A DNA stretch of 64,000 nt from the NCBI GenBank assembly GCA_032718475.1, contig JAUCBJ010005099.1, positions 13,937 to 77,936 on the forward strand, read 5' to 3'. The DNA is from Nemertoderma westbladi. Taxonomy: Eukaryota > Animalia > Xenacoelomorpha. Below the pieces are notes generated by a model. It did no database searches. It saw nothing but the letters and a program-made list of their open reading frames with translations, and had not been told where the DNA came from. Positions 11,317 to 64,000 of the stretch are shown here, one piece after another; within the stretch, counting starts at the first letter, position 1; the number at the start of each line of letters is the position of its first letter. The position numbers were made by a program, and so were the translations under genes.

Positions 11317-11643
11317 AAAAATAATTCGCACTTACTAGGATTCGAACTCAATACCTACTACACATATAATTTCCAACGCTCTACCGACTGAGCTACTGAA
11401 CCACTTGACCAATAGGCATACAAATGATAGAACAAACACAAATGAGGACTCAAAGTAATCTTTTACAAAGTTAATTCGAATAAAATAAAATTTTGAAAAT
11501 CCACGGCATTTAGGGAATATAATTCTATAATCGTACTGGCAGAAAGTTAAATATTTGTTCTAGAACAAAAAACCTCACGATAAAAGCCATTTTCATATGA
11601 AAAAATCTGTTTAAAAAGTGGGTACCCATTACATAGTAGTGCC
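11317..11643. mobile_element. Right-hand part of a MULE-like MITE, probably interrupted by element 1
   Basis: Ends in GGGTACCCATTACATAGTAGTGCC and contains TTGTTCTAGAACAA, both shared with the complete MITE at 11794-12539. Confidence 0.5.
11327..11402 (-). other. tRNA-derived (SINE-head-like) sequence with Pol III A and B boxes
   Basis: Minus strand has TAGCTCAGTCGGTAGAGC (A box) and GAGTTCGAATCC (B box). The anticodon arm and acceptor stem do not pair. Confidence 0.6.
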
Positions 11644-27600: not shown

Positions 27601-28108
27601 GACGAAGGTGACTCACGGGCGAAGGTGACTCACGGACGAAGGTGGCTCACGGACGAAAGTGACTCACGGACGAAGGTGACTCACGGACGAAGGTGGCTCA
27701 CGGACGAAGGTGACTCACGGACGAAGGTGACTCACGGGCGAAGGTGACACACGGACGAAGGTGGCTCACGGACGAAAGTGACTCACGGACGAAGGTGACT
27801 CACGTACGAAGGTGGCTCACGGACGAAGGTGACTCACAGTCGAAGGTGGCTCACGGACGAAAGTGACTCACGGACGAAGGGGACTCACGGACGAAGCTGA
27901 CTCACGGACGATGGTGACTCACGGACGAAGGTGACTCACGGACGAAGGTGACTCACGGACGAAGGGGACTCACGGACGAAGGTGGCTCACGGACGAAGTT
28001 GACTCACGGACGAAGGTGGCTCACGGACGAAGGTGGCTCACGGACGAAGGTGGCTCACGGAGATGGTGTCTCACGGGCGAAGGTGGCTCACGGTCGGAGG
28101 TGACTCAT
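21617..28108. repeat. 17-bp satellite (GGTGACTCACGGACGAA)n, about 6.5 kb and about 380 copies, with higher-order duplications
   Basis: Direct tandem periodicity. Rare variant units recur (GTGCCTCACAGTCGTAGG at about 22360 and 25026; GAGTTACTCACGGGCCATGG at about 23681 and 25838). Confidence 0.98.
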
Positions 28109-41944: not shown

Positions 41945-42439
41945 ATTATATATATATTACATATATATAAAGAATGCTGTGCCGGGGCCAGCTTGTCGAC
42001 AAAATTTCTCCGACACAACTCCCTATCACCCATGACATTTGCTAGATCATCCGCATCTTCAAGGCCAGTGTCCTTTAAGACGCGTCTCAAGAAAGTCATG
42101 GACTGTCCACCATGCATATTCACTCCATGAGGCTGCCAAAGTACAAGATTATGCACTGGCTGGTCCTCACGGCGAAAGCAATGTCCTGCAAAGCGGAGTC
42201 GTCTTTGTTCAAGTGTCAAGGTTGGGGGAACCAATGAGACACCTCCAATGTTATATAGTGTCTTGTTGGAGATGTGTGCATTGTACTTGACACAATGAAC
42301 TCGGCGTAGCATTCTTGTGAATGTGCCATCCAGAGATTTGGTGTCCTCAGCAGTTAGAACCCAGCATGGACTCCCAGAGGAGTACTGGAACTACTGCTGC
42401 TCTAAATAATCGGACCTTAAGTTTCCGATTAATTCTCGG
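41945..42439 (-). pseudogene. RTE-like LINE C-terminal fragment, cut by the 3' LTR of element 2
   Basis: KLKVRLFRAAVVPVLL...LDGTFTRMLRRV...RRLRFAGHCFR...LVLWQP. Confidence 0.85.
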
Positions 42440-43694
42440 TGTTCGCGCTTTTGAAGACCTTTAGCAGTTTAACCTGCCAAATTGATATGTCTTTTAGTTA
42501 ATTAAAACCACTTTAGCATACGACAATAATTTATGCTAATACGCAAAACATTAGCCGAAGTCAGCCCATGCGCGATCATTCACCCGATGGATCTACACCC
42601 GGGAGACTGAATTCGGATGCTTGAATTGTATTATTACAGTGTAAGGTTGCAGTGTATACCTAATGTATTATTCGATAGATCGTTAATAATTAATCTCTGA
42701 CAGATATTATTGGCTTTCGGGAAATATTAACAGTTCCTTTAGGACGTGGCGCTTTATCTATTTAAACAGAACTAAGACTTATACTAAACGCAACGATACT
42801 GCTTATGATTAAAGTATAAAACGTATTCTTTAGGAAATACTTTGTTACCAATCACAATCATACACACTATTCTGCCGACAGTCAGTACATTTGATCACAC
42901 ATAAAGAGAGCAGTAATTGACTCACGTAGGGTCTGCTAAATAACATTGGATTCAATACACACCACATTAATATAAATCGCAATTGTTATGTATAACCGGT
43001 CTCTCTAACCTGTAGTGTTATCAAGAAAATTGGGAATTGGGTGATTTATCCGTATTATCCAAATAGCAATATTTCCATCAACAAATATTTACAATTAATA
43101 ACTGACGGTAAAATAACAGTACAAACAATATGATTAATGAGTTAGTTAAGTAAGGTGAGATGAGTGATTTAAGTCAGTGAGTTCGTTTCGTTAGGTAACA
43201 GTTTATACTTTCGATAATTCAAGCAGTTTACGGTACAGCAGTATCTATCCAAAAATGCCGGTGTTTCTGGCTTAGACAGCAATAACAACAAAGTATCAAC
43301 AAAAAAACAGTAAGACTGAACACTCTCCTTATGATCGGCAGAAAAGCTACACGTCGACAGGAAAAACCGCCCTGATTGGCCCAAGCCAAACAAAGAACCA
43401 CGCGGCCAATGGCTGTTTCCATGTCAGCAACCAGCTGCTAGATGTCGTAATATGAATCATCACGGCTAAGCTGTGAAAGGTGGTTGGTGCATTACAAGTT
43501 TTTGTCTTACCATGTCCGCTAAAACACGTATATAGCAGAATGATTTTTATGTCCGTTAAAACACCTGTAAAGGTACCTTGCGGGCGAGGGGAATATATAT
43601 ACAGTTAGAAAACCTTTTTTAGAGTATTCCAGCGCCTGGGGGGGAACTGGCCAGCAAAGGCAAACGTATCAGTTATCCCACAAAAGCTTTTACA
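42440..43694 (-). repeat. 3' LTR of element 2
   Basis: Direct repeat of 53319-54590. Minus strand reads TGTAAAAGC...GCGCGAACA. Confidence 0.95.
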
Positions 43695-43703
43695 CCGCTC
43701 CCA
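43695..43703 (-). other. Polypurine tract of element 2
   Basis: Minus strand TGGGAGCGG directly abuts the TG of the 3' LTR. Confidence 0.7.
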
Positions 43704-43797
43704 GAAAATGGGATTTAGGTCTATAAAATATACAAAATCACAGTTTCTAAAATACAAAAATACTCTAAACAGTTAGTCTTTCTTGCGCGGACGGCGT

Positions 43798-45223
43798 TTA
43801 CGCAGTTTTTTTTGAAGCTAGTAAGAGTCCTTTTCTCTTTGGGGCGAGCCACTTTACTAGGAGGGCTATAACTCCTGGGTGAAGGGTGCAATATGATTGC
43901 ATCAGAAGGTATGGGATTGCGATCGGTATATCCGCCGGTCGAAGTACCGGGTTGATTGACCTCAACGTCCGGGGAGAGGGTCTAACGGCTTTGAGAGCTC
44001 GTTTCAAGACAGCCGCTCTTACGGGTCCTGTACGAGTGGTCTGCACGAGGGCCGTGGGTGGACCATAGGTAGTTAGAAACTTCCTTGGTTTAATGGTTCT
44101 TTCCAACTCGCGTTCGCGGGCTCGGTACTCGTAAGGCCGTCGATATACTTCCTGTAACTCAGGGTGTGAGTTAACAAACAATTATCCATAGTCCGGATCC
44201 TGACGGATATGATTGATTAAGTTATAGGAATGAAGGTCGCTAGGATTAACACTCTTGAGAAATTTGCGTACGAATTTGGTTGAAATACATTCTCCGACGC
44301 GCTTCAGTAGCTCGTAACTTGATATGCGTGATTTCTGTTCAACCGAAGCGAATAGATAAGGATGTAACGCATAAACTCCTTCGTAAGCGCGTCCGGGATA
44401 ATAGCGATGGCGCGAATCACAATATAAATCAGCGTTCGCTTCCCAAGCTCTGATATAACGTAGTACAATCATTTCATCTACGCTCTCTAAATCATGGTTA
44501 AAGGGACAATCAAAGCTGGCATGTCCTTTTAATTGACAATGATGGCATTGAGTCATAAATTGGGGGCAGACAGCAAAAATGTGCAAATTATTAAGCCGAC
44601 AATATGCACAATAGATTTCCATCGACGGTTGTTCGTGGAAATAGGAACAGAGATCGTTGGTATCCATAGACGTAATATGGTCTCTCGATGCGCACAGCCG
44701 ACAACGTCGTCTAGAAACATAATTAGCATGGCGATAATCATACGCAGTAAGACACTGAGGACCTTGATACCATTCCAATATGTAGTCGCTATCGCTACTC
44801 CGAGACGTGGGAGGCTGAATCTCCTCAGATTCTAGACATATTGGTTCGTCTTCCCAGTCTGTTACGAATAGAATTTTCGTGATCTATTCTCGTTTTATCG
44901 TTACGACGCCGCTGGGTATGATATTTAAATAGAACCATTTCCCTTTCGGTGTCTACATCGTCCGTATCATGTAAATCGATAGGATGGCCGGTAGTTAAGA
45001 AGTCCATATACGTACCATTACGATGCGTATAGCGAGCGGTTAATTTTCGATAGTCCAATTCACGCGTAAGTTGCTCTTGGGACATCGGCGGTTCGATATA
45101 ATGACCATCATCCTCCGTAATAGTCGGATCGGCTTCACCGCGTATCAAGCTATCCACAAACGCTTGTAAAGGTAGAGTATATCGCTCCCTGATACCAAGG
45201 TCATCTTCTATCAATTCCGTCAT
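43798..45223 (-). pseudogene. Accessory ORF of element 2 (about 475 aa reconstructed), Cys/His zinc-knuckle-like protein broken by one frameshift and one stop
   Basis: 44182-44778 and 43798-44181 are in the same frame, separated by a single TAA. That frame is open upstream to 44883 and overlaps 44825-45223. Motifs: CRLCASRDH...C, CAYCRLNNLHIFAVCP, CHHCQLKGHASFDCP. Confidence 0.7.
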
Positions 45224-46841
45224 ATTTGCTATCTGAGTTTGTTAATATCAATATAAGTTAATATTTTAGGTAAGCGGGCGTCGCTTCCTACTCGGCCTTT
45301 TGCCCCCGGACAGTGGGTTTCTCAGCGCCGATGTACCGCTGTCGCAGTGTTTACGCCAACATGTAGCACAGCACGACAACGATAACCGGCACAAGTCCCA
45401 CCACTGTCCGTCCCAAAGGCTTGAATCCACTTGAGGTTATCTCGGTAGAGTTAGGGCTATTTTACAATTGCGATTAGCTACTGTAAACACACTTTAGTAG
45501 TAACATTCACCTATAAACGCACAAATTCCATACAATCATTACTTACTGCACACATGCATGCCATTTGTCCGTTAGTCAGTGTCTTCCAGAATGTCACGTA
45601 TTTACTATGTATCCTTGGATACTAATAGTGCGCTATGTATACTCTTATGCTACGCAATGGGGCAAGCCTTTTATTGTTCCCTTAACTTGCTTCTAATTCT
45701 AGCGTGGGTGTTGCCATGGTGACATTATGGAAAACTAGCGGTAGAATTAGGGCAATCCTCATGCATACAGATCTGGGATGTTATTTAATAGTAATTCTTT
45801 AATTGTCAATATCCTCTTTATGCATGATTTTATAAATTTTATCGGCTATTGACTATATGCTGGAGATTCTCACACTCTAATACACTCAATATGAATCTCC
45901 GCTCCCATGATCTATTAATTACTGGAATTTTGGGAATGTTATAAATTGCACAAAATGACAATTTATGAAATTCATTTAAATATGAATTTAATTTATTCCC
46001 GTGAATTTTATTATTTGATGTTAAATTGACATAAATTTTATTCCAGAGCAAGTCTGGGGACATAAGATCCTTAATTCTATGAAATTTGTCTTTTAAGAGT
46101 ATCGGTAAGTGCTACGATATCTTAATCGACTAGAATTGTTAACGGATCTGAATTTTAAAGATTTTAATAAATATTAAATTAATATTTAGGATGGGCACCG
46201 ATTTATTCCAGAACTTGTCTGGGGACGTTAACCACTGATTCTAGAATTTGTCTTTCAAGTATATCGGTGGGTGCCACGATATCTTAATCGACTAGAATTA
46301 CAGATGGTCAAAAGTTTAACAGATTTATTTGCGATTGACGCTACTGTTAGAGGGACATCACGCTACTATATGTATTATTTGTTATAAGGTAGAAGAGCAA
46401 TATCGCACGAAGCAATGTCAGTGTGAAGAGGCAAGTCGTTTCCAAGGTCTACCCAGAGCTTGGTTTAGCCGAGACACGAGGATCTGAACTTTGCATTCCT
46501 AATACTCTGCCTACCAATAATACTTAAATATAGTAGTGGCTTTACCGTACTTTAAGAAGTACTGACATGTCATCTTACTATAGTCTCGCATTTATAATAT
46601 AATACGGACAGTAAGGAAAGAGAAAATAATTACTTCTTGCCGTCGCACTAAATATATATTATAAGTAATTATGTACGTAATAAACACTAATATATTGCAC
46701 TAATCTACTAACATTCTAAAATAACATTTTACTAAATAGAATTAAATAAAAACGATTATAATAAAGTACATAATAAAGTTCGCATATAAAATGTAATAAA
46801 ATAGATAAAATAATATAGTCATACACCCACTCCATATATAA

Positions 46842-49800
46842 TTACGTTATGGAGTCCCTAGATCTTTGTCGAATTAGGGAAGTGGTCGTAGGAAGAGTAT
46901 CCTGCCTTCCATGGTTTCCGGACAGTTTTCGGTCTCTTTCCAGTAAACCTAAGCGACCAGCTGGGCGATTAGGCTGTCGTGTTACTTCCGCCGCTCCCTT
47001 GGCCTGTCTAATCTCCTCAGTGGTAAGATGAGGAGGCCATTCATCTTCTTCTTTACTTAGGGAGTCGGGTCCACCTAACCAGCCGGGAGTATCTATCCGT
47101 TCTTGAGGAGTTGCTCTTCTGGAATCGATGTCGGCTGGATTAATCGTCCCAAGGCAATGTCTCCATTGATCTACATTGGAGTTAATATCGTCATTATCTG
47201 AGGAGTATGGTGTTCCCTCAGTTGGATCGTCCACATCACTGCTCTCCACTTCCCCCTTTACTTGGTATACCTGTGGTTGAGGTAATCTCTCTTTGAGAGT
47301 TCTACGGGAAGGGCCAGTGAAGTACCAACCTACTCTAGTTCTTACCGCATAGGTTTGCAGTGGCTGCGGTTGAGCAGGCCGTTTCTCCAATGGCTCGAGC
47401 GCCTCATGCGCGTTTTGGCCGATGATTATTTGCACTCCAGGATAATCTGTCTGGAATCGAGGTATCTTAAGATGTTGGATGCTCTCATCCTCGTCCCAAC
47501 TATAAAGGTCTGCTTGGTTAGTAGCGAAGTTCTTTATAGCCACCATTTTTACTGACCTTATACTTTGTGCTCCTAATTTATCCTGGGGGGTGGACAACGC
47601 ACCTACATAGTAATCTGCCGTTATGGTAGATTTCCAAACCTGCATAATTCCTGACATATTCAATTTAGTCCGGAACTTGGGTTGTCCAGCAAAGATATCT
47701 TCGGCTAGTTCTTGATCGATGAATGTTCCTGTGCTGCCGGAGTCAAGTAGGGCGTTCACTATGTAACTCTTGTTGGGACCATGAACTCGAACTTGCACTA
47801 CAGGAAATTCTCTTATTCCTATGTTGGAAGTTGGAACTTTCCAAGATGGTTGTTTGTCAAAAGGAGTTGGAGTAAACTCGTCAGTGTCCTTTTCATCCGT
47901 AAGTGCTCGATACACTGTGGTATTTATTAGATAACAGGATTCGTTGGCATCGGAGAATTCGTCTGTATAGAATCCTTCCCACTCAGAACCTTGGTCAGTG
48001 TCGTTCACATCACTGAATTGGACATGTAGTTCGGGCTCACTTACCTGACTCGGGTTGTCTCGTTCGAACTCACTGTGTAACAAGATGTGATGTTTCGCGC
48101 CACACTTTGCACACTTTGCGTCGGAGTAACAGGTTCGCCGTTGGTGTCCTGATCTGAGGCAATTATAGCATAACCGCTTATTCCACAGGACTGTACGTCT
48201 GTCTACAGGGGATTTCTTTAGAAATTCAGCACACGCACTCAAACGGTGAGGCCCGTCGCACAGCGCACATTTTGGTTTGATGTTACTCACCTTAACTTGG
48301 TTAACGTTCTGCACTCTCGTTCTTTCTTCGGGCTTTCTTCCGTGAATTCTCTTAGGAGACGTAGGAGGAGTTGTTGTTACCTGTTCTCTCCTGTCACTGG
48401 TTCGAGACTTGTATTTACTTACGTCTTTATAGGTCTTGTTGTCATAGTAAGATTTTGCTGTGTCTTTCCCGCTGTCCTCTTCTTGAGAAGCTTGGCTTTC
48501 GCCGTCGTCAGTATAACACACTGGTATTATCCTTCTCCTAGAATCGGGTTTCTCACTTACCTTATTTTCCGATGTTTTCTCTCTGGCCTGCCTTATGAGT
48601 TGTAATTTTACTTCACTATCTAAGAAAGACATGAGATCAGCCATGGTAGGACTTCGTCGTTGTTGTTCATTCATGTACAACACTTTCTTGTCCCAGCGTG
48701 TACATACTCCACCCTTTGGTAAAGTAGAGACTACGGCTCCAATAACCATGGAACTCTGGTATTCGTGCGACTTACCTAACCAGTCCAGTTGTCTACAGAT
48801 CTCTTGTATTTCATCGGAAAATTCTATAATCCCACTACTAAGGAAGTGTCGGGGGGCTACCAATTTTGTATACAAATACTTAGCTATGTTATCTTTGTTA
48901 CCATACCTGATGTTTAATGTATCCCAAACTTGTCTTAATCCATCTGGATGTCCAATAAACTTTAACGCCATTAACTTGGGAGGTCCTTCCAAACACTTGA
49001 TGAGGAATCTAAGTTTCTCTCCGTTAGATAGTACAGAGTTCTGTATGCTATCTTTGTAATATTCGTTGAAAGGTAACCATTTCATCTCATCCCCATTGAA
49101 TTTGACGATCTCTCCCACTTTGACCGCTTGGCGGGCTTCTGTTCTAGCCATCTGACGCGTAAAGCTTTCTTGGGCCATCGTGTTATTTAATATCGAATTA
49201 TCGGTATACAAATTTCTCGGATCATTATCAGGTCTATAGGGAATATCATTAATAACAGGTCTATAATCACCCTTAATAGGGTTTGCTATAGGAGTTTCAA
49301 CTTCACTAGCAGTATAGATGCGTGTAGGCTCCACACCTTGCGCATGTGATACTTCAGACCTAACGGGTTGACACAATGTTACAGGGGGCATTGGTATGCC
49401 TTTTTGTATATTGACTAATTTGTCGCGTTCTAGCGCGATACTTTGCTGCACTTCTTGCAACTCTGCTCTACTTTCCCTCACTGTTCCCTTAAGTTGGTGG
49501 ACAGTCTCCTGCATCTGTCCTAGCAGGAGATTCATCCCCCGCCGTCCCTCTTCCACCCACTCAACCGCCGAAGCGGGAGTCGCCAACATAGTAGCGGGCT
49601 GACGCGGGACGACGGGAGACAAATTATTGATTTCTCTCTCTGCTATCTGGACAGGGGTGTTTGCATGGGCTGTTCCACCGGGTACAGGCAGTGTAGTGCT
49701 ATGTAAAGGGAATTTAGAGTTAAGCTCTGGAAGTGTAGGGGTCTCTAGCACAGAAGTGACTTTGGGAATTACAGGCCTAATTATTTCAGGTTCATCGACT

Positions 49801-51059
49801 ATAGTAGGGACTTCTGCTTCTGCCGCCGCTGCCTTTCTTTCTGCTTCTGCTTCTGCCGTAGCAGCCGCCTTTTGTTCCTCTATCCTTCTTTTCTTTATTT
49901 GTTCTTCTCGAACTCTAGTGAGACGGAGTTTTTCATCACATTCAGCTTGGTTTGCAGCTAACATTTCGGTATCGATCGCGTCCAATATAAGCTTGGTTCC
50001 TTCACTATTAGGGGAAAGTCCATGTAGCCGTCTCCTCAACTCTTCGTCTCCTAGGAATCGCTGATAGTCGGACAAATAAATGTCGATAGCGTCTCTAGTT
50101 CGCGGTTTCTCGGCGGCCTCTTCGCTTTCCTCTTGAGCAAGGGTGACATCAGTTTGTTCGGAGACATCAGTCGGTTCCTCATAGATTGATCTCTCAGCCA
50201 GCTGGGATTTCCACGGGGCTGTTTCCTGTACTTTGAGATCTACTCGATGTAGCCAAGTTTTGACAGCAACCTGCAGCGACGTGTCCTGTCTTCTTTTGGA
50301 AGTTTCCTCAAAGGCTGAGAGGATTAGTCGAATGCGTAGGGTTCTTTCGCGTATTTGATATAGCAGTTCTTCCTGCTCTTGAGGTCCGTGAGGTTGTCGA
50401 AACAGTTGTTCCTCCAATCGCTCCAAGGATCCGAAGAATCCCTGCACATATCCTGCTGCCGACCTCTTCCAAACAGCTGGATCCATTGTATCTTTTGCCA
50501 CTCCCATCCTGTGTATATCTTCCCAAGTAGCCTCGGACATATCAAACGGAAGTCCGAGTCCGGGAAAGTTCCATTGTGATTCAACAATAGATCTCAATTC
50601 TTCCCTGGCGTATCCCGCGTAATTATCTTGGGTCGCTTGCTTATTCTTCGCCCAGTCGGTTTGATGTTCTTCCACCGCAATGAGTATAGTAGTCAGCACT
50701 GCAGCAGGAAGAGTAAGAAGGGGGTCCGAGTAGACTGTATCAGCCATCTGCACTCCATGTTCGGGAGTCAACTCTACAGTATCCGAACTGCTGGAGCTAT
50801 CCGGTCTCTGGGAAGTAGGTTCTTGACCAAGATGTTGCTGCGATAGGACAGCTGCCTCTTGGTCCCGTTTTACCTGTGCCCGAGTGCCTATGATGGACCT
50901 ATGGTGGACTAGCCTAGGGTCTGATACTACTGGAGGGATGACCTTTTTTACAGTAGGAGGTGAGCCGAACTTCTCTTTTATTCGCTCCACACTCCTATCT
51001 GAATCACAGATAGTGGTCTCGATCAGACTGTCCGACAGGTTTTGCTGAGTGTCAGACAT
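46842..51059 (-). CDS. BEL/Pao Gag-protease polyprotein, 1405 aa, with short fused RNase H and integrase C-terminal remnants
   Basis: Gag core KFNGDEMKW...KLRFL, triple Cys-His (CALCDGPHRLSAC, CYNCLRSGHQRRTC, CAKCGAKHHILLH), protease ALLDSGS...TRVGW, then QWRHCLGTINPADIDSR...WLGGP...WP and RPAGRLGLLE. No YVDD and no integrase DDE. Confidence 0.95.
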   Translation of the reverse strand: MSDTQQNLSDSLIETTICDSDRSVERIKEKFGSPPTVKKVIPPVVSDPRLVHHRSIIGTRAQVKRDQEAAVLSQQHLGQEPTSQRPDSSSSSDTVELTPEHGVQMADTVYSDPLLTLPAAVLTTILIAVEEHQTDWAKNKQATQDNYAGYAREELRSIVESQWNFPGLGLPFDMSEATWEDIHRMGVAKDTMDPAVWKRSAAGYVQGFFGSLERLEEQLFRQPHGPQEQEELLYQIRERTLRIRLILSAFEETSKRRQDTSLQVAVKTWLHRVDLKVQETAPWKSQLAERSIYEEPTDVSEQTDVTLAQEESEEAAEKPRTRDAIDIYLSDYQRFLGDEELRRRLHGLSPNSEGTKLILDAIDTEMLAANQAECDEKLRLTRVREEQIKKRRIEEQKAAATAEAEAERKAAAAEAEVPTIVDEPEIIRPVIPKVTSVLETPTLPELNSKFPLHSTTLPVPGGTAHANTPVQIAEREINNLSPVVPRQPATMLATPASAVEWVEEGRRGMNLLLGQMQETVHQLKGTVRESRAELQEVQQSIALERDKLVNIQKGIPMPPVTLCQPVRSEVSHAQGVEPTRIYTASEVETPIANPIKGDYRPVINDIPYRPDNDPRNLYTDNSILNNTMAQESFTRQMARTEARQAVKVGEIVKFNGDEMKWLPFNEYYKDSIQNSVLSNGEKLRFLIKCLEGPPKLMALKFIGHPDGLRQVWDTLNIRYGNKDNIAKYLYTKLVAPRHFLSSGIIEFSDEIQEICRQLDWLGKSHEYQSSMVIGAVVSTLPKGGVCTRWDKKVLYMNEQQRRSPTMADLMSFLDSEVKLQLIRQAREKTSENKVSEKPDSRRRIIPVCYTDDGESQASQEEDSGKDTAKSYYDNKTYKDVSKYKSRTSDRREQVTTTPPTSPKRIHGRKPEERTRVQNVNQVKVSNIKPKCALCDGPHRLSACAEFLKKSPVDRRTVLWNKRLCYNCLRSGHQRRTCYSDAKCAKCGAKHHILLHSEFERDNPSQVSEPELHVQFSDVNDTDQGSEWEGFYTDEFSDANESCYLINTTVYRALTDEKDTDEFTPTPFDKQPSWKVPTSNIGIREFPVVQVRVHGPNKSYIVNALLDSGSTGTFIDQELAEDIFAGQPKFRTKLNMSGIMQVWKSTITADYYVGALSTPQDKLGAQSIRSVKMVAIKNFATNQADLYSWDEDESIQHLKIPRFQTDYPGVQIIIGQNAHEALEPLEKRPAQPQPLQTYAVRTRVGWYFTGPSRRTLKERLPQPQVYQVKGEVESSDVDDPTEGTPYSSDNDDINSNVDQWRHCLGTINPADIDSRRATPQERIDTPGWLGGPDSLSKEEDEWPPHLTTEEIRQAKGAAEVTRQPNRPAGRLGLLERDRKLSGNHGRQDTLPTTTSLIRQRSRDSIT

Positions 51060-52384
51060 GTTTAGTTATACAGTTGAATGTCTACTACTATAGTTTCAGT
51101 TAAAGCAAGTCTAGTAATTCAGTATGACCGCAAGCCTAGCGATTTATTACCGGTACCGTTACTCAGTGGAACGTGATATATATACAATATATTAGAGTAC
51201 CGGTATGCTTATAATATATAAGTGTTATTACAGACTCGATTTGTCACAGATTACCGGTATAATTTTAGCACAAATATATATATATATAGTAGGCCTATAA
51301 TGAATACCGGTATACAGCTTACACTTATAGTATATAAGTATAATTCTGAACTAGAATTAATTACAGAGTACCGGTATGATTTCAGCTCAAATTTATAGAA
51401 ATAAATATAATAAGCCTATGGTAAGTACCGGTATGTCAATTATTTTTAGAATAATTGAATTCCTGAATATTTTAGGGTTACTTAGTTACTTTAACTTACT
51501 TTGTTACCGTTATTTAAGCAGTAGTCCAACTGATAGTGAGACCTAGTTGTCGTATGGCAGGCCTACTATTTATAAATCGTTTGAGTTGATTTATAATATT
51601 TATATACCCGTTTAAAATGGGTTTTTGTCAATATTTGAAATAAATGTTATTATTTCTGGGGGTCACTACACGGAAGCTGAACGCCTCTCAGTGAAGTGCT
51701 ATTTATTTGACACTAAAACTGATAATTCTAATTTACCTAAGTTACTTAATACTACAAATTACTTACGATACGGGTGAGATTAATTCTCTAATTAAACACA
51801 ACAAAATATTACGGACGAAATTTTTAGGGTAATTTTACAGGGAGTCTACAAACCAGTCCAACAAAGGGTTAGATTTCTGGCTATTACAAAAGACAGGGTA
51901 CTACGGTATTTAAATAATAAGTAGTAGTAAATATATTGTACTGTCCAGATAGGAAAATACCACCGCCTGACGACCTATAACCGTATCGCTATAGGTACTA
52001 CGTTATGTATCACGGATTGTTCCTACCCAGAAGCTAATAGAGCTAACGAATGTGCCTATCAACCACTTTACAACACAAATATACTGCCTACACTAATTAC
52101 TTCGGAAGGCACTGTACTCTAAACCCTAAATTAGGTACAAGTACCGGTATAACAAATAATCAGTAGTTAAATATACTTGAACAGTTAAAAGAACCACGGC
52201 ATCTGCTGGAGTGACCGAAGCACAAAGTCGTCAGTCTTTACCTACGCCAAGCAGCCCTGATGTAGTACCGGGGTTAGTTTAACTATAACGGTATGTATAA
52301 CAAGCACAATTACTGTAGGAATAAACTTGGGGACATGAATGTTGCGAATAATCGCATAAACTCTGAATAATAAATATTACGCTA

Positions 52385-52950
52385 CCCGTACAGAATACTC
52401 AAACAAATACAAACCAAACGCTGGCCGACTACTATCAAGCCTAAACAAACTACTGTATGTGCAGATTCTGAAACTGTTAGTTAGTATGCGTGCTAACACG
52501 GTAGTACGACTTACTCTTTAAGAGGGGATTGACCTTACAGTTATGACTGCCCCAACTTACTAACGGCACTTGATCAGACCAACTCTACACGCGCAGCAAT
52601 CCCTTCAGACCCAAAAATAGCTAGACAACAATTCAGCCTACAAATATTTGAGTAATAACTATTACGGTACCTGAACAGACCACACAAACAAACACAGGCT
52701 AAAACACTGGCAGACTACGATCAAGCCTAGATAAACTACAGTATATGCAGACTCTGAAACTGTTAGTTAGTATGCGTGCTAACACGGTAGTACGACTTAC
52801 TCTTTAAGAGGGGATTGACCTTACAGTTATGACTGCCCCAACTTACTAACGGCACTTTATCAGACAAACTCTACACACGCCGTAATCTCTCCAAACCCAA
52901 CAACAGTCAGACAGCAGCTCAGCCTACAATTATCTGAACAATCTGAGCAG
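52385..52950. repeat. About 290-bp tandem duplication in the 5' leader of element 2
   Basis: CTGAAACTGTTAGTTAGTATGCGTGCTAACACGG... occurs at about 52468 and 52754. A homologous duplication is present in element 3 (about 59920-60480). Confidence 0.85.
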
Positions 52951-53305
52951 GGTCACACGCCTTCTGCTCAATATTAGCCTACTAGTAAATAAAACCGACA
53001 GAAATAAGTAGAATCTCAAATAAAAAATCAGGGCGGCCGTTCCCTGATTAAGTACCAAGACCTACCGGTATACAACAATCAGATTCGAATAATACTAAAT
53101 GTACTTGTACAGCAGTACCGGTACCGGTGATGACAGTTAGGCCTACTGACCTACAAAGTACCGGTTCAGTTTTACCAGTCACTACGGTAGTTTGCAACCT
53201 TATTGCCTACTGCAATAAGATTATAAACTGTTACTGTTCGTCAGAACAGTATTAAACTGTATTTAATGCCTACACTTGCAACCTTATTGCCTCCTGCAAT
53301 AAGAT

Positions 53306-53318
53306 TATAAACTGTTAC
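53306..53318 (-). promoter_or_regulatory. Non-tRNA primer-binding site of element 2 (GTAACAGTTTATA), complementary to its own LTR
   Basis: Directly follows the 5' LTR and is the perfect complement of LTR positions 54097-54109 and 43195-43207. A second copy lies at 53222-53234. Confidence 0.75.
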
Positions 53319-54590
53319 TGTTCGCGCTTTTGAAGACCTTTAGCAGTTTAACCTGCCAAAATTTATATGTCTTTTAGTTAATTAAAACCACTTTAGCATA
53401 CGACAATAATTTATGCTAATACGCAAAACACTAGCCGAAGTCAGCCCATGCGCGATCATTCACCCGATGGATCTACACCCGGGAGACTGAATTCGGATGC
53501 TTGAATTGTATTATTACAGTGTAAGGTTGCAGTGTATACCTAATGTATTATTCGATAGATCGTTAATAATTAATCTCTGACAGATATTATTGGCTTTCGG
53601 GAAATATTAACAGTTCCTTTAGGACGTGGTGCTTTATCTATTTAAACAGAACTAAGACTTATACTAAACGCAACGATACTGCTTATGATTAAAGTATAAA
53701 ACGTATTCTTTAGGAAATACTTTGTTACCAATCACAATCATACACACTATTCTGCCGCCAGTCAGTACATTTGATCACACATAAAGAGAGCAGTAATTGA
53801 CTCACGTAGGGTCTGCTAAATAACATTGGATTCAATACACACCACATTAATATAAATCGCAATTGTTATATATAGCCGGTCTCTCTAACCTGTAGTGTTA
53901 TCAAGAAAATTGGGAATTGGGTGATTTATCCGTATTATCCAAATAGCAATATTTCCATCAACAAATATTTACAATTAATAACTGACGGTAAAATAACAGT
54001 ACAAACAATATGATCAATGCAATTAAATTAAGTGAGTATGTTAATTAAGATTGATCAATTAGTTAAGATTCGTTAGTTAGTTAGTGATTTATTGAGGTAA
54101 CAGTTTATACTTTCGATAATTCAAGCAGTTTACTAGAGTTCTTCCCAAAAGGCCGGTGTTTCTGGCTTAGACAGCAATAACAACAAAGTAACAAGAAAAA
54201 ACAGTAAGACTGAACACTCTCCTTATGATCGACTAAAAAGCTACACGTCGACAGGAAAAACCGCCCTGATTGGCCCAAGCCAAACAAAGAACCACGCGTC
54301 CAATGGCTGTTTCCATGTCAGCAACCAGCTGCTAGATGTCGTAATATGAATCATCACGGCTAAGCTGTGAAAGGTAGTTGGTGCATTACAGGTTTTTTGC
54401 CTTACCATGTCCGCCAAAACACGTATATAGCAGAATGATTTTTATGTCCGTTAAAACACCTGTAAAGGTACCTTGCGGGCGAGGGGAATATATATACAGT
54501 TAGAGAACCTTTTTAGAGTATTCCAGCGCCTGTGGGGAAACTGGATTGCGAAGCAAAAGGGGCCAGTTATATCCCACAGAAGCTTTTACA
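53319..54590 (-). repeat. 5' LTR of element 2
   Basis: Direct repeat of 42440-43694. Confidence 0.95.
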
Positions 54591-56154
54591 GCCATTTTAG
54601 AGTAAAAGAGCCCCAAAACCCCGCTTTTTGAGGATTCTTGTGTATAAAATGGCCGAAGCTCAATTTCAATCAACATTGCTTGATGGCACTGGATGTAACA
54701 ATGATTTGAACCGATTCATCAAAAAATTTAACACTGAATAAAACATAGATTGAAAAATTGTTAAAGGTACAGTATATTGAATAGCCTTTGTTTGGGACAA
54801 AAATAGGCCTAATAACAAACATTTGGTGTGACTAAATTAAATTTTAGTTACTCCTCTTCACTTAAGCACCGATAAAATCTAAATATTACATTATTCAGCA
54901 AATGATTGGTATAGGTGGAGGTGAGGGGGGTAGTGAGTAGTGGATATTGTGCACTCGACACATGTAGGGCCTAGTCTATTGAAATTTTAATGTTTTTAAA
55001 TATACAACTAAATCAATCCTGGTTTTCTAATTAGGGGTGGGGGAGGTGGGGTGGGGGTGTACAAATCCAAGGTCGCTTCTCAAAGTAAATTCTCAAACTG
55101 AATGTTCCCTTCATAATGAACAGATGCATGCAAATTATACAATAATTTATTATACCGCCACAGCTATAAGTTCAGTTACAACTTACAAGGTTTATAGATT
55201 TCATGTTTATTAAATGGAAAATCTTAAAATAACGCAATTTTCATGGTATTTGCTCAATAATAGCCGAATAACGCAAAATTTTGGAAATAGCGCAAGGAGG
55301 GAGCCCTGGTCGGTCATGGATCCACGTGATCATATTTATCGATTAATAATACTTTTATTTTCATTCATATTTAACTCTTTTTAATGACGAATTTTTGAAG
55401 GAATAAGGATGTGGGCATGGCATCAACCTAAAAATGGTTTAATAGGAAGGAAGAGTAAAAATTCGCTTAATTCGATATACCGGTAGTTAAACGGAATAGT
55501 CAGGCAGGTTTATATTAAATTTAATCTTGTTTGATGTTCCTACCGTATATTATTCAGTTTTTAATATTCAAATATATTTATTTGATATTTATTATATCAA
55601 TAATTTTTGAAATGGTACTTTTACTTGTGGGTATAATATTAGGTACTTTTACTTGTGGGTATAATATTAGTTTTGTATATTTACATTTACTATTTCTCGG
55701 GTTATTGTTGATTTCTAGTGTGGCATTCAATGTATTGTGCTCAATCGCTAATTATTGTAGAATATTGTGCTCATTCGCAAATTATTGTAGAATATTGTGC
55801 TCATCATTCGCTTATTATGTTATTGTTACTGACTGACTGTGTATAATGGGTAGTGGATAATGAACTGAAAGTAATTAGTTTCAATTAATTCATATTTGTA
55901 TTTTCTAATTTTCTTTCTTTGCTAATATTTACGTGGATCTATGAAATTACAAAAAAAGTCACAAGATGTTCCTCGGGAGAATTTAAATTTTATTGGAATT
56001 GTCATTTTTGCATCTGCGCTTAATCTATAGGTTAGGCTTTCTCAGAAGGATCGCGATAAGTTCCAACGCGACGGAAAATGTACCTGAAGGAGTCATAATA
56101 TCGCAGTTAATCTTTAATTTTGATCAGATGATGTCGATTAATGTGTGAAAATAG

Positions 56155-58550: not shown

Positions 58551-59625
58551 TGTACGCAGGCATCTGGGCTCTGTTTAATCGGCCAACAAGCCTAGGGAGG
58601 TTGCGTCATAGCCTTGTTTTGTATCTCCCAATAGAATTTGAGTTAGCCTTGATTTGACCTATCACAGAGTACTGAACTGAAAATTTCCTATCTCACTGCT
58701 CTTTCTCTGTGTTGAACGGGAGCTTCGTGGAATAAGGGAGTTGGTATCCTCGTATAGAGCAGTAGTCACGAGTTTTTCAAAGCCACGAAAGAACGGCTTT
58801 GTAGTGTTTTATGCTTTCTGCTTTTTAGCTCAACACTAGGAGGTTTAATTATAAGGACATATATCCTTTAACTGACCTGGCGGCTGACCAAACGCACCTG
58901 ATGACTGACTGATTGTCTTAACTCAAAACAAACTGGCACGATTGATCTGTCAATACTGTGTACTGCTATTTGTTGTCGGTTATTCATTATATTTGTTGAT
59001 GAATTATTATATTGGAATAACGAGAAATAACCCCGACACCCAATATTCTTGATATACCGAAGGTAAGAGAGAAAGGTTACCAATAACGATTGTGACTTAT
59101 GTTAAAGTGGTTTGAAGTGAATCTAATGTTATTTGATAGACCCTACATGAGTCAGCCTGTGTTCCTTTTATATGTGACTAAAATCAGTAAAGATTGGCAG
59201 ATTAGTGTGCAGTATTGTGCAGCATTGTGTGCGAGTGAGTCTGTTAAAGAAGCATTTCCTAAAGAATGTGCCATATATGTGAAATATAATTAAACCATAT
59301 CGTTGTGAGTAGTTTAAGTCATAACTCTGTTTATATAGATAAAGCGCCACGTCCTAAAGGAACTGTTAATATTCCCGAAGGTGAATAATATTGTCAGAGA
59401 TTATATAATACTGTCAGTCGAATAATACATTAGGCTTACATAGCAACAAAATTAAACCGTCGAACCCAATCTCCCGGGAATATCCAGCGGGTGAATGGTC
59501 GCGCACGGATTGGTTTCGACTAGTGTAGTGAATCAAATACTTGTCATAGGCTAAAAAGCGATTTAATATCTAGAAGACATCTTAATTTGGCGGGTTAAAC
59601 TGCCAAAGGTCTGAAAGCGCGAACA
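58551..59625 (+). repeat. 5' LTR of element 3
   Basis: TGTACGC...AAAGCGCGAACA. About 58950-59625 is homologous to the element 2 LTR; the first 300-400 bp are unrelated. Confidence 0.85.
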
Positions 59626-59637
59626 TTAAAGGATATA
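59626..59637 (+). promoter_or_regulatory. Non-tRNA primer-binding site of element 3 (TTAAAGGATATA), complementary to its own LTR
   Basis: Perfect reverse complement of TATATCCTTTAA at 58860-58871. Confidence 0.75.
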
Positions 59638-61808
59638 GCTTCTTTGTTGCAGTAAGCAATAAAGTTGAAAGTACCGGTCAACCGGTAAACCTGAACCGGT
59701 ACATTCTGTAGGTCAGTAGGCCTAGCTGTCCTAACCGGTACTTCCGTATAAGTACACTAGTATTATTCGATTTGATTGTTGCATACCGGTAGGCTGTTTA
59801 GGGGATTAGGGATTGATCACCCCTTATACCTTTATATGGTTTACTTATTTCTGTCAAGTTTTATTTATTTGTAGGACAGTATTGAACAGAAGGCGTGTAA
59901 GCCTGATCAGATTGTACAGACGATTTGTAGGCTGAGCTGTTGTCTGATTGCTGTTAAGTCCGAACGAATTGCAGTGTGTGTAGATCACCTGTCCGATTAA
60001 GTACGGTTAGGAAGTAGGGGCAGCGAACGCTGTAAGGTAAACCCCCAACTAAAGAATAAGTCGCACTACTGGGTTAGAGCGCATACTCCCTAATCATTTC
60101 GGAGTCTGCATGTCCTGTAGTTTATTTAGGCTTGAGAGTAGTCTGCCATCGTTTGGTCTGTACTTTGTTTGTGTAAGTCTGTACGGGTAGCGTATAATTT
60201 TATTTAGATAATTTGTAGGCTGGATAGTTGTCTGGCTGTTATTAGGTCTGAACGGATTGCCGCGTGTGTAGATCATCTGTCCGATTAAGTACGGTTAGGC
60301 AGTAGGGGCAGCGAACGCTGTAAGGTAAACCCCCAACTAAAGAATAAGTCGCACTACTGGGTTAGAGCGCATACTCCCTAATCATTTCGGAGTCTGCATA
60401 TACCGTAGTTTGTTTAGGCTTGATAGTAGTCTGTCGGTGTTCGGTCTGTATTTTGTTTGAGTAGTTTGTACGCGTAGCGTAATATTTATTATTCAGAGTT
60501 TATGCGATTATCCGCAACATTCATTCCCCAAGTTTGTTCCTACAGTAATTGTGTTTGTTATACATACCGCTATAGTTAAATTAACCCCGGTACTACACGG
60601 GCTGCTCGGCGTAGGTAAAGACTGGTGATTTTGTGCATCGGTCACTCCAGCAGATGCCGTGGTTCTTTTAGCTGTTCAAGTATATTTAACTACTGATTAT
60701 CTGTTGTACAAGTACTCGTACCTAATTTAGGGTTTAGTGTACAGTACTTTCCGAAGTAATTAGTGTAGGCATTATATTTGTGTTGTAAAGTGGTTGATAG
60801 GCACATTCGATTAGCTCTATTAACTTCTAGGTAGGAACACTCCGTGATACATAACGTAGAACCTATAGCGATACGGCTATAGGTCGTCAGGCGGTGGTAT
60901 TTTCCTATCTAGACAACGCAGTGTATTTACTACTACTTATTATTTCAAATACTGTAGTACCCTGTCCGTTGTAATAACCAGTTTTCTAACCCTTTGTTAG
61001 GCTGGTTTGTAGACTTCTTGTAAAATTACCCTAAAAATTCGTATTTTGTGTTTTTTGTAAATTTTTGTGTTTATTTAGAGATTGTAATCTCACCCGAATT
61101 GTACGTAATTTGTAGTATTAAGTAACTTAGGTAAATTAGTATTATTTGTTTTAGTGTCCTATACGTAACACTTCACTAAAAGCGCACTGCTTTGTGTAGT
61201 GATTACCCCGGAAATAATAACATTTATTTCAAACATTGACTAAACCCATTAAAACGGGTATATATATATTATAAATCAAATCTAACGATTTATAAATAGT
61301 AGGCCTACCATATAACAACTAGGTCTCCATATCAGTTGGACTACTGCTCAAATAACGGTAATAAAGTAAGTAAAGTAACAAAGTAACCCTAAAGTAACAG
61401 AAATTCAATTATTTGAAATAATTGATATACCGGTATTTACGATAGGCCTATTATCTTTATTTCTATAAATCTAGGCTGAAATTATACCGGTACTTGTAAT
61501 TAATTCTATTTCAGAATTATATATCCTACAAACTGTAAGCTGTATACCGGTATTCCAGATAAGCCTATTATATATTATATATATTTGTGCTAAATTTATA
61601 CCGGTATTCTGTGATAAACCTAGTCTGTGATAATACTTATATAGTTATATATACTATAAGTATACCGGTATTCTAATATATTATATATATATCACGCTAC
61701 ACTGAGTAGCCGTACCGGTAATTAATTATTAGGCTAACAGTTAATACTGAGTTACTAGACTTGCTCAAACTGTAATACAGCAGTAGACATTCAACGGTAT
61801 ACATAGTC

Positions 61809-64000
61809 ATGTCTGATACTAAGCAGAACCTGTCAGACAGTATATTAGATGTAACTATCTGCGACTCAGATAGAGACGTACAACCGTCTGGTCGTAAATT
61901 CAGTTCACCTCCCACTGTGAGGAAGGTCATCCCTCCAGTAGTAATAACAGAACCTAGGCTAGTCCAACATCGTAGGTCTATCATAGGCACTCGAGCTCAG
62001 GTCAAGCGGGACCAAGAAGCGGCGGAACAGCAACAACCCGCGAGTCAAGAACTTATTCCTCAGCGGCCCAGCAGCTCCAGTGGTGAGGATACTGTAGAGC
62101 TGACACCCGAGAGCGGAGCAGAGAGGACGGATGCGGTTTATACGAATCCCCTCCTCATCCTTCCTGCAGCCGTACTCAGCGGGTTATTGATCGCGGTGGA
62201 AGAACACCAGATCGATTGGGCGAGGAGTCAACGATCCACTAGAGATCGTTATGCGGGGTACACGAGGGAAGAATTGAAGTCTATTGTCGAGTCGCAATGG
62301 AACTTCCCCGGACCCGGACTCCCGTTTGATTTATCAGAAGCTGTCTGGGAAGACATACACCGGATGGGAGTAGCCAAGGAAACCATCGATCCAGCTGTAT
62401 GGAAGAGGTCCGCAGCCGGATACGTACAGGGATTCTTCAGCTCTATGGAGCGAGTAGAAAGACAACTATTTAAACAACCTCAAGGACCTCAAGAGCAGGA
62501 ACAGCTGCTTTATCAAGTTAGAGAAAGAGTTCTGCGAATTAGGCTAATCTTATCCGCCTTTGAGGAGGCTTCTAAAAGAAGACAAGACACGTCGTTGCAA
62601 GTTGCCGTAAAGACTTGGCTTCAAAGGGTGAGACGCCAGGTTCAAGGAGCAGCTCAGTGGAAAGTTCAGTTGGAGGAGCGCTCAACACAAGGAGAATCGA
62701 CAGACGCTACTTTCTCCCAAGTGGAAAGTGAAGCGACGGCAGAGAAACCGCATAAGAAGGATGCCATTGATATCTATCTGTCAGACTATCAGCGTTTTGT
62801 GGGAGATGAAGAGTTGAGGAGAAGGCTAGAGGGACTTAGCCCTAATAGCGAAGGAGCCAAACTTGTGTTAGATGCGATTGATGTGGATAGGTTAGCGGCG
62901 AACCAAGCTAAATTCGAGGAACAACTCCGCATCGCTAGAGAAAAGGAAGAGCAAGTAAGGAAAAAACGTATAGAAGATAGAAAGACAGCAGCAGCAGCAG
63001 TGGCAGCGGCAGAAGCGGAAGGAAAAGCGGCAGCGGCAGAAGCAGAAGGAAAAGCGGCAGCGGCAGAAGCGGAAAGAAAGGCAGCAGAGGCAGCGGCAGA
63101 AAAGAAAGCGGCAGCGGCAGAAGCACAAAGGAAAGCGGCAGCGGCAGAAGCGGAAAGAAAGATAGCAGTGGCAGAAGCAGAACGGAGGGCATCTGAAGAG
63201 ACAACCCAACTAGAGCTGGAAAATCTTCAAGAGAGGCAAGATAACTTTAATAAACAGTTAACAGCTAGTAATATGCAGATGATGAATCGATCTACTCCCA
63301 AACGACAAGGTTATACATCATCTGAGGAAGGCGATACCACCGACGCTGAAGGCGGAGGAAATCGATCCCGCCTAAGCAGACGTAAAAGAACATTCCACCG
63401 TCAGAAATTGCCTGATTTGCCTCCAGCTGTTAGAAGGCAACTAAATAACACCAACTTAGAGAGTACAGAACCCACAGACCAAATAATTACAATAGAAAGA
63501 CTCCCTACTATAGTAGATGAGCCTGAAATAAGTAGGCCTGTTCTTGAAATCACCCCTTCGGTAATAGACACACCTGGGCTCCCTGAAGCTACCTATAAAT
63601 TCCCTCTGCATAGCACTAAGCTACCTGTGCCCCGTAGAACTGCCCAGGAGACAGTTCAGGTCCTGGACCCCGAGCGAAATATTCCAAATTTGTCGCCCGT
63701 TGTCCCTCGTCTGCCCGCTACGACGTTGGCGGATCCCGTTTTGGCGGTTGATTGGGTAGACGAGAGACGGCGGGGGATGGATATTCTCCTAGGAGAGATG
63801 AGGGAGAATCGGAAACGCTCTTCCCAACAGGTCCGAGAGTTGGAAGGGACTGTCCAACATTTAAAAGGAACGGTGAGGGAAAGTAGGTTAGAGTTGCAAG
63901 AAGTGCAGCAAAGTATCGCGTTAGAACGCGATAGATTAGTAAATTTACAAAAGGGTATACCACCACCCCCTGTAACAATGTGTCAACCCGTTAGGTCTGA
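61809..64000 (+). CDS. Gag N-terminal region of element 3 (about 730 codons, open to the window end, not in the ORF track)
   Basis: ATG at 61809 gives MSDTKQNLSDSILDVTICDSD... Spot checks stay in frame through HRMGVAKETIDPAVWKRSAAGYVQGFF and ...PPVTMCQPVRS, homologous to 46842-51059. Confidence 0.9.
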   Translation, partial: MSDTKQNLSDSILDVTICDSDRDVQPSGRKFSSPPTVRKVIPPVVITEPRLVQHRRSIIGTRAQVKRDQEAAEQQQPASQELIPQRPSSSSGEDTVELTPESGAERTDAVYTNPLLILPAAVLSGLLIAVEEHQIDWARSQRSTRDRYAGYTREELKSIVESQWNFPGPGLPFDLSEAVWEDIHRMGVAKETIDPAVWKRSAAGYVQGFFSSMERVERQLFKQPQGPQEQEQLLYQVRERVLRIRLILSAFEEASKRRQDTSLQVAVKTWLQRVRRQVQGAAQWKVQLEERSTQGESTDATFSQVESEATAEKPHKKDAIDIYLSDYQRFVGDEELRRRLEGLSPNSEGAKLVLDAIDVDRLAANQAKFEEQLRIAREKEEQVRKKRIEDRKTAAAAVAAAEAEGKAAAAEAEGKAAAAEAERKAAEAAAEKKAAAAEAQRKAAAAEAERKIAVAEAERRASEETTQLELENLQERQDNFNKQLTASNMQMMNRSTPKRQGYTSSEEGDTTDAEGGGNRSRLSRRKRTFHRQKLPDLPPAVRRQLNNTNLESTEPTDQIITIERLPTIVDEPEISRPVLEITPSVIDTPGLPEATYKFPLHSTKLPVPRRTAQETVQVLDPERNIPNLSPVVPRLPATTLADPVLAVDWVDERRRGMDILLGEMRENRKRSSQQVRELEGTVQHLKGTVRESRLELQEVQQSIALERDRLVNLQKGIPPPPVTMCQPVRS

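What the first reader, a model, noticed from the sequence alone, without database searches (positions are those of the whole stretch)
46842..51059. Gag-protease-only retroelement that deleted RT, RNase H core and integrase in frame and kept a 1405-aa ORF
Seen: after the protease the ORF jumps to the last 50 or so residues of the Pao RNase H region (QWRHCLGTINPADIDSR...WLGGP...WPP, compare element 1 DWRHCPRPQNPADIASR...WQHGP...WPP). It then jumps to the extreme integrase C-terminus (RPAGRLGLLE, compare RPTQRLVLLEE). Two deletions removed the catalytic domains without breaking the frame. The sister copy at 61809 is clearly diverged in DNA but keeps an open frame with conservative changes. Inference: a non-autonomous lineage that builds and matures its own capsid but borrows Pol, similar to plant TR-GAG elements but with a protease and in an animal BEL/Pao.
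Basis: partly seen in the sequence, partly recalled or inferred. Interest (0 to 1): 0.75.

Follow-up and report, generated by a model that had tools for sequence, protein, structure and literature searches.

The report
Pol-less self-priming BEL/Pao retrotransposon family
A jumping gene in an animal genome keeps its capsid and protease gene but has lost its copying and integrating enzymes, and the same shortened form occurs in several diverged variants, so it likely spreads by borrowing those enzymes from a rarer complete relative and likely primes its copying with its own RNA.

Summary
Confirmed. The 1405-aa ORF lies in a 12.15-kb BEL/Pao LTR element (54590-42440, minus). Gag core, triple Cys-His box and DSG protease are intact. 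Two in-frame gaps of about 500 aa each leave only a 67-aa post-RNase-H piece (E 3e-13) and a 10-aa integrase-tail motif (p 5e-4). It is not a one-off: in runs of three studies, deep and diverged contigs cross the junctions, while a few shallow contigs leave at them (candidate complete partner, unidentified). Segregating Gag-protease sites fall 7 of 7 on third codon positions. Gag-protease-only elements are known in wheat (RLG_Sabrina_SA); I found none in print for BEL/Pao. This scan noted self-priming BEL/Pao on two other genomes and Gag-protease-only elements on others. Partner, expression and particles are not shown. New variant of a known kind; interest 0.5.

The parts
53319..54590 (-). 5' LTR, 1272 nt, TG...CA ends
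   Evidence: pairs with 42440-43694, 1203 of 1245 aligned positions identical
54097..54109 (-). 13-nt stretch inside the 5' LTR, exact complement of the post-LTR site (predicted self-primer; predicted transcript 5' end)
   Evidence: same stretch in the 3' LTR at 43207-43195
53306..53318 (-). primer-binding position, no TGG start; complementary to own LTR
   Evidence: 1 of 5000 shuffled LTRs match; 2 of 2234 leader positions reach 13 nt (this site and its duplicate)
53192..53324 (-). tandem duplication of LTR end + primer site + hairpin (49 nt, 98% alike; second primer site 53234-53222)
51060..53318 (-). 2.26-kb 5' leader with a 288-nt direct repeat (52364-52937) and a hairpin behind the primer site, both also in element 3
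   Evidence: leader 87% identical to element 3
46842..51059 (-). ORF1, 1405 aa: long unassigned N-terminus, Gag, protease, Pol remnants
48714..49100 (-). Gag core, DUF1759 (aa 654-782)
   Evidence: E 3.8e-12
48075..48269 (-). triple Cys-His box (aa 931-995)
   Evidence: pattern as in PMC554778
47304..47810 (-). aspartic protease, LLDSG ... IIG (aa about 1084-1252)
47173..47185 (-). junction 1 (RT and RNase H core missing), aa 1292-1296
   Evidence: profile jump; shallow contigs leave at 47185/47187 and arrive at 47173
46980..47180 (-). retained post-RNase-H (tether) piece, aa 1294-1360
   Evidence: E 3.2e-13
46938..46994 (-). junction 2 (integrase missing) and integrase-tail motif aa 1365-1374
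43798..45223 (-). ORF2 region, about 470 codons, broken in this copy (frame change between 44883 and 44825, stop at 44184-44182); Cys/His zinc-knuckle-like motifs
   Evidence: (zf-CCHC_3 E 0.0099, under cut-off)
43695..43702 (-). short purine-rich tract before the 3' LTR (weak PPT candidate)
   Evidence: read from sequence
42440..43694 (-). 3' LTR, 1255 nt; no target-site duplication with the 5' flank
58551..64000 (+). element 3, sister subfamily: LTR about 58551-59625 (start inferred), own 12-nt primer site 59626-59637 complementary to 58860-58871, ORF from 61809 running off the window

Best explanation
This is one copy of a multi-variant BEL/Pao LTR retrotransposon family that keeps Gag and protease but has lost reverse transcriptase, RNase H and integrase in frame; it likely packages its own RNA in self-made, self-processed particles, likely primes reverse transcription with the 5' end of its own transcript, and would borrow RT, RNase H and integrase from a rarer complete relative. 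Shown: domain content, both gaps, their presence in diverged contigs of several runs, third-position bias of Gag-protease polymorphism, LTR/primer-site complementarity with different letters in two subfamilies. Inferred: transcription start at the complementary stretch, particle formation, protease activity, co-assembly with a partner's Pol, RNase H cleavage of the primer in trans (by analogy to Tf1; mechanism recalled, criterion read in PMC6317226). The 67-aa and 10-aa Pol remnants are probably passengers at protein level or kept as RNA signals. This particular copy is probably ageing (broken ORF2, private changes, no target-site duplication).
For: Contigs crossing junction 1: X4 record 12 (47154-47383, 25 other letters, spans protease end to WRHC, 29 letters beyond the linker), X4 record 14 (47195-47334, depth 550), X3 record 5 (47157-47254, depth 4629), X5 records 23-24. 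Crossing junction 2: X4 record 10 (46903-47059, 13 other letters, depth 960), X3 record 2 (46909-47014, depth 4671). Shallowest contigs of the same runs have depth 18-53 (27 records shown, 1633 not shown). All 30 bins covered in 3 of 4 runs and over the whole element in 4 of 4 runs. Shallow contigs at 82-87% identity leave or arrive at 47185, 47187, 47173, 46994 and 46926 with 53-386 unaligned letters, the pattern expected of an undeleted relative. Segregating sites in Gag-protease: 7 of 7 on third positions (p 4.6e-4); near-private ones 1 of 4 (sites are the listed best-supported rows). 0 of 11 listed indel places fall in ORF1 or ORF2, which are 43% of the stretch (p 0.002; 258 more rows not shown). 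dN/dS 0.20 to element 3. Self-priming criterion of PMC6317226 (10 bp or more, starting 0-5 bp after the 5' LTR) met in both elements, and each site fails on the other's LTR (6 nt or less).
Against: No autonomous partner identified: element 1 is only 22% identical in Gag-protease with no LTR likeness; no protein of 2460-5000 aa scored among 2928 candidates (weak); identity of the 150 listed library hits 25-43%. The letters of the departing contigs were not identified and could be diverged short variants or broken copies. Contig depth is not a copy number (tool caveat). X7 covers only the protease side (8 of 30 bins, depth under 15). The tail after the protease shows no clear constraint (10 of 21 third positions, p 0.12). 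This copy lacks a target-site duplication and its LTR mismatches cluster in the first 576 nt (36 of 42), so it may be a recombinant and gives no proof of its own transposition. No expression data. Variant counts are small and come from truncated tables.
Confidence: 0.75

Rival explanations
1. Same family, different origin: the short form is a retro-copy of a spliced subgenomic Gag-protease RNA of the complete element (two introns, the tether piece an internal exon), as with the spliced gag-protease RNA of Drosophila copia (recalled, not checked). Compatible with the life cycle above.
For: Two clean in-frame gaps (1 in 9 by chance) leaving a 200-nt island; departures of shallow contigs cluster within about 15 codons of both junctions.
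Against: No splice-like exon ends are evident in the window sequence; the skipped DNA is not in hand; one search gave no joint that shows it.
Confidence: 0.15
2. A dead internally deleted copy, amplified passively (segmental or tandem duplication) in a repeat-rich region; purifying selection acted only in the autonomous ancestor.
For: No target-site duplication, mosaic LTRs, broken ORF2, neighbouring satellites; dN/dS to element 3 can stem from an autonomous phase.
Against: Junction-crossing contigs differ by up to 8-11% while ORF1 stays open (chance of no stop about 0.001 at 4% neutral change, 0.06 at 1.6%); third-position bias among deep segregating sites; 5' flank has far lower depth than the element.
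Confidence: 0.07
3. A host-domesticated Gag-protease gene.
For: Long open frame, low dN/dS, loss of mobility enzymes.
Against: Both LTRs, primer site and leader are kept; many deep variants; this copy shows private decay.
Confidence: 0.03

Closest known systems
RLG_Sabrina_SA and RLG_WHAM of wheat and barley, 'semi-autonomous' gypsy elements (PMC9744471, passages read)
   Same: High-copy LTR element with an intact GAG-Pro ORF and no other Pol, paired with an autonomous partner (RLG_Wilma).
   Different: Gypsy in grasses; here BEL/Pao in an animal, with in-frame tether and integrase-tail remnants, a 3' ORF2 and a self-priming signature; partner not identified here.
TR-GAG of plants (PMC4350172; PMC6022998; passages read)
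   Same: Non-autonomous LTR element keeping Gag; Inpactor's working class also takes GAG+AP.
   Different: Original definition: under 4 kb, one ORF, no aspartic protease, Copia/Gypsy-like Gag. This element is 12.15 kb, has a protease and a second ORF, and a BEL/Pao Gag.
BEL/Pao superfamily (Sinbad, Roo, MAX; PMC554778, passages read)
   Same: Triple Cys-His box, LLDSG + hydrophobic-IG protease, Pao-type tether and integrase tail, TG...CA LTRs.
   Different: No RT, RNase H core or integrase; lineage within BEL/Pao not assigned (no RT, no named references).
Tf1/Sushi, Tcn1 (gypsy) and TAR/Houba/Osr-1 (copia) self-priming elements (PMC6317226, passages read)
   Same: Sequence right after the 5' LTR complementary to a stretch of the own LTR instead of a tRNA.
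   Different: Other superfamily; here the element lacks the RT/RNase H that would cut and extend the primer. Transcript start untested.
Predicted proteins P0023 (Aedes albopictus gene model, Gag-protease-DUF5641) and P0066 (Gag-protease-tether-partial integrase)
   Same: BEL/Pao polyproteins with RT missing in frame.
   Different: One gap only, about 30% identity or less, single database sequences that may be gene-model artefacts; none of 174 non-window proteins examined shows both gaps.

Membership tests
BEL/Pao LTR retrotransposons | triple Cys-His box in Gag | tested here: met
   aa 931, 964, 983 against the pattern in PMC554778
BEL/Pao LTR retrotransposons | protease LLDXG + LIG motifs | tested here: met
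   LLDSG at 1104-1108, IIG at 1212
BEL/Pao LTR retrotransposons | Gag DUF1759 and Pao-type Pol homology | tested here: met
BEL/Pao LTR retrotransposons | RT (YV/MDD), RNase H (DAS), integrase DDE in that order | tested here: not met
   absent; remnants keep the order PR, tether, IN tail; so a derivative, not an autonomous member
BEL/Pao LTR retrotransposons | paired LTRs with TG...CA | tested here: met
BEL/Pao LTR retrotransposons | target-site duplication | tested here: not met
   flanks differ in this copy; other copies not available
TR-GAG (strict, PMC4350172) | under 4 kb | tested here: not met
   12.15 kb
TR-GAG (strict, PMC4350172) | one ORF, Gag only, no aspartic protease | tested here: not met
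   protease and a second ORF present
semi-autonomous Gag-Pro elements (Sabrina_SA type, functional class) | intact Gag-protease ORF, no RT or integrase | tested here: met
semi-autonomous Gag-Pro elements (Sabrina_SA type, functional class) | many copies share the structure | tested here: met
   deep, diverged contigs cross the junctions; whole copies not seen, depth is not a copy number
semi-autonomous Gag-Pro elements (Sabrina_SA type, functional class) | autonomous partner sharing LTR ends and primer site | tested here: inconclusive
   shallow contigs leave at the junctions; not identified; element 1 excluded
self-priming LTR elements (Tf1-type mechanism) | 10 bp or more directly after the 5' LTR complementary to own LTR | tested here: met
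   13 nt and 12 nt, different letters
self-priming LTR elements (Tf1-type mechanism) | complementary stretch is the transcript's 5' end and is released as primer | not testable with these tools
   only contigs available

The most novel reading that the evidence does not exclude
An animal two-component BEL/Pao system: an abundant, self-priming, Pol-less element that supplies capsid, protease and a new zinc-binding ORF2 protein, and a rare complete partner that supplies Pol and itself depends on the short form for surplus Gag, because single-ORF BEL/Pao elements (like element 1, one 2717-aa frame) make Gag and Pol one to one.
Probability: 0.15. Interest if true: 0.75.

Novelty: new variant of a known kind. 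Interest (0 to 1): 0.5.

Why it matters
Gag-keeping non-autonomous LTR families are documented in plants; a selected, abundant Gag-protease lineage in BEL/Pao would extend this to the least studied animal LTR superfamily. Annotation that anchors on RT would miss such a family entirely. The primer-site pairing, with changed letters on both sides between sister subfamilies, points to tRNA-independent priming in BEL/Pao, which my searches did not find in print, and here it would have to be processed in trans. The system makes two questions testable: how single-ORF LTR elements get surplus Gag, and whether self-priming RNA can be handled by a partner's RNase H.

Tried and rejected
No whole genome is held, so copies and partner could not be listed. 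No RNA holder listed; X5 is RNA only by guess, so nothing on expression. X7 (another organism label) covers only the protease side at low depth: uninformative. Element 1 as partner: rejected (22% identity, no LTR or leader likeness); no 11-nt-or-longer complement at its apparent LTR end, its LTR could not be delimited. Pol remnants elsewhere in the element: none. Longer relatives of ORF1: 0 of 2928 candidates; longer relatives of ORF2's middle piece: 0 of 194; near-length relatives of ORF2 not searched. ESM Atlas: ORF2 piece best 0.86 (zinc-knuckle proteins, lead only); ORF1 aa 105-400 best 0.80, no family. Single-sequence fold of protease plus tether: pLDDT 36, unusable. LTR divergence as an age: rejected, mismatches are clustered. 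dN/dS to element 3 as proof of selection after the deletions: rejected. tRNA genes in the window: none; no tRNA set was on hand to test the primer site directly. Paper searches for a Gag-protease-only or self-priming BEL/Pao: (listings read; passages of 10 papers read, no supplements); none reported one. Most subscription journals and Repbase are not covered, and the slash spelling of the family name could not be searched as one term.
Full report
Observation. The ORF at 46842-51059 (minus) is open for 1405 codons. Pfam finds the Pao Gag core DUF1759 at aa 654-782 (E 3.8e-12) and a weak aspartyl protease hit, but none of Peptidase_A17, Integrase_H2C2 or DUF5641, all of which the complete element 1 (695-8848, 2717 aa) has. 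The triple Cys-His box, LLDSG and IIG motifs that PMC554778 gives as BEL/Pao hallmarks (passages) are present; RT and RNase H active-site motifs are not. A profile from 19 full-length Pao polyproteins matches aa 364-1267 to profile 71-677 and aa 1294-1360 to profile 1221-1286 (E 3.2e-13). The integrase-tail motif at aa 1365-1374 is the best-scoring window of the protein; 10 of 20000 shuffled tails reach it (17 rows used, element 1 and the truncated P0026 left out). Each gap removes about 500 aa. No Pol remnant lies elsewhere in the element.

Anatomy. The ORF belongs to a 12.15-kb element between LTRs 54590-53319 and 43694-42440. Between 5' LTR and ORF1 lies a 2.26-kb leader; behind ORF1 an AT-rich spacer and a second ORF region (45223-43798) that is broken here by a frame change and a stop and carries Cys/His motifs. 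It has no significant family or homolog, but deep contigs 84% identical align over 354 and 526 nt with 0 and 1 gap (X3 record 14, X4 record 18), as coding DNA would. The copy has no target-site duplication and 36 of its 42 LTR mismatches lie in the first 576 nt, so it is probably a recombinant and its LTRs do not date it.

Is the short form a lineage? No genome was held. Seven of 12 listed runs hold the stretch, 4 with half of its words or more. In 4 of 4 runs laid, all 30 bins of 42000-55000 are covered, with far less depth in the 5' flank. On 46780-47480 (27 records shown, 1633 not), X4 record 12 joins the protease end to WRHC with 25 other letters in 233; X4 record 14 (depth 550), X3 record 5 (4629) and X5 records 23-24 tile junction 1; X4 record 10 (depth 960, 13 other letters in 157) and X3 record 2 (4671) cross junction 2. 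The shallowest contigs of those runs have depth 18-53. Depth is no copy number, but the short form is clearly the common one and has diverged by up to 8-11%. One of these runs may be the window's source; X3, X4 and X5 belong to three studies. Five shallow, diverged contigs or loose ends leave or arrive at 47185, 47187, 47173, 46994 and 46926 (aa 1292, 1291, 1296, 1356, 1378) with 53-386 unaligned letters. That is what an undeleted relative would give, but their further letters were not identified, two more loose ends start inside the tether (47053), and diverged short variants or broken copies could do the same. X7 does not reach the junctions.

Selection. Against element 3, dN/dS is 0.20 (CI 0.15-0.25; 0.15 for aa 1-397, 0.41 for aa 417-568). 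This does not test the short lineage, since element 3 runs off the window inside Gag. Better: of the listed variant places, those segregating in the family within Gag-protease are 7 of 7 third positions (p 4.6e-4), those nearly private to this copy 1 of 4; in the tail 10 of 21 (p 0.12) and 2 of 9. None of 11 listed indel places lies in ORF1 or ORF2 (p 0.002); the indels listed inside the ORF are of net length three. These tables are cut to the best-supported rows, so the counts are small and selected. Reading: Gag-protease is under constraint in the abundant form, the Pol remnants hardly, and this copy has some private decay.

Priming. There is no TGG-type site after the 5' LTR. The 13 nt directly after it are the exact complement of 54109-54097 within the LTR; in element 3 a different 12 nt match 58860-58871 of its own LTR; neither matches the other's LTR beyond 6 nt. 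Chance: 1 and 0 of 5000 shuffles; 2 of 2234 and 1 of 2158 leader positions reach these lengths, namely the primer sites and a duplicate. This meets the criterion used for self-priming in PMC6317226, which names Tf1/Sushi, Tcn1 and TAR/Houba/Osr-1 (passages). A hairpin follows the site in both elements. That the stretch is the transcript's 5' end is predicted, not shown. I noted this before looking up the scan's notes, which report the same for BEL/Pao on two other genomes (AI notes, not support).

Mechanism. Most likely (0.75): the element is transcribed from its LTR, makes Gag-protease, packages its own RNA, and co-assembles with Pol from a rarer complete relative, whose RNase H and RT would free and extend the self-primer and whose integrase would use the shared LTR ends. 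Domain loss, spread of the short form, constraint and complementarity are shown; expression, particles, partner and priming are inferred. Rivals: origin as a retro-copied spliced RNA (0.15, compatible with the same life cycle), passive amplification of a dead copy (0.07), domestication (0.03). Element 1 is not the partner (22% identity).

Comparison. Closest by design is wheat RLG_Sabrina_SA, with an intact GAG-Pro ORF and an autonomous partner (PMC9744471, passages; the lead came from a scan note). Strict TR-GAG (under 4 kb, no protease; PMC4350172, passages) is not met, though Inpactor files GAG+AP there (PMC6022998, passages). Non-autonomous elements lacking RT and integrase also occur among grass centromeric elements (PMC4079200, passages); Culex non-autonomous elements have no coding capacity (PMC3286476, passages). 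PMC3118150, PMC8220671 and PMC3601003 (passages) gave nothing on such BEL/Pao forms. Among 174 non-window proteins, five lack RT while keeping a downstream part in the printed rows (P0010, P0022, P0023, P0051, P0066), none with both gaps, and 46 of the 150 end after the protease, probably as truncated predictions. No close protein relative was found. Ten paper searches found no Gag-protease-only or self-priming BEL/Pao; the library lacks most subscription journals and Repbase, and no supplements were read.

Verdict. Real, and a family trait rather than an accident. The design is known from plants; its occurrence in BEL/Pao, together with a self-priming signature and an unassigned second ORF, makes it a new variant of a known kind. 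Interest 0.5.

Noticed in passing
window 695-8848 (minus), 5' region to about 11300: Element 1: complete single-ORF BEL/Pao polyprotein of 2717 aa with a long insert between tether and integrase (tether-to-end 802 aa against 559-598 in the other full-length relatives); its LTR could not be delimited and no self-priming match was found.
   Followed up: partly
window 59626-61808 against 53218-51060: The 2.1-kb non-coding leader is 87% identical between elements 2 and 3 while synonymous sites differ at 54%: strong RNA-level constraint or recent exchange of the leader. The first parts of the two LTRs are unrelated, the last 680 nt about 71% alike.
   Followed up: no
window 13137-13775 (minus): Host gene piece matching GEMIN8 (PF15348, E 9.5e-21).
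   Followed up: no
window 21617-28107, 56155-58550, 40245-41418, 16027-16568: Tandem arrays of 17, 21, 63 and 30 nt; the 21-nt array abuts element 3's LTR. The 63-nt array scores as zf-nanos, which is likely an artefact of repeated Cys/His.
   Followed up: partly
window 42000-42440: A very deep repeat flanks the 3' LTR and is cut at 42441 (loose ends in X1, X3, X5); the 5' flank is different, low-depth DNA.
   Followed up: no
window 47224-47294: The linker between protease and junction 1 varies in sequence and length among variants (joints and loose ends).
   Followed up: no
window 62985-63500: Element 3 carries an in-frame Ala/Glu/Lys 27-nt repeat and about 115 further codons absent from element 2; element 1 has a similar 27-nt repeat at 7728-7820.
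   Followed up: no
window 11330-11400 (minus): tRNA-like sequence upstream of element 1 by eye (possible SINE); ARAGORN calls no tRNA.
   Followed up: no
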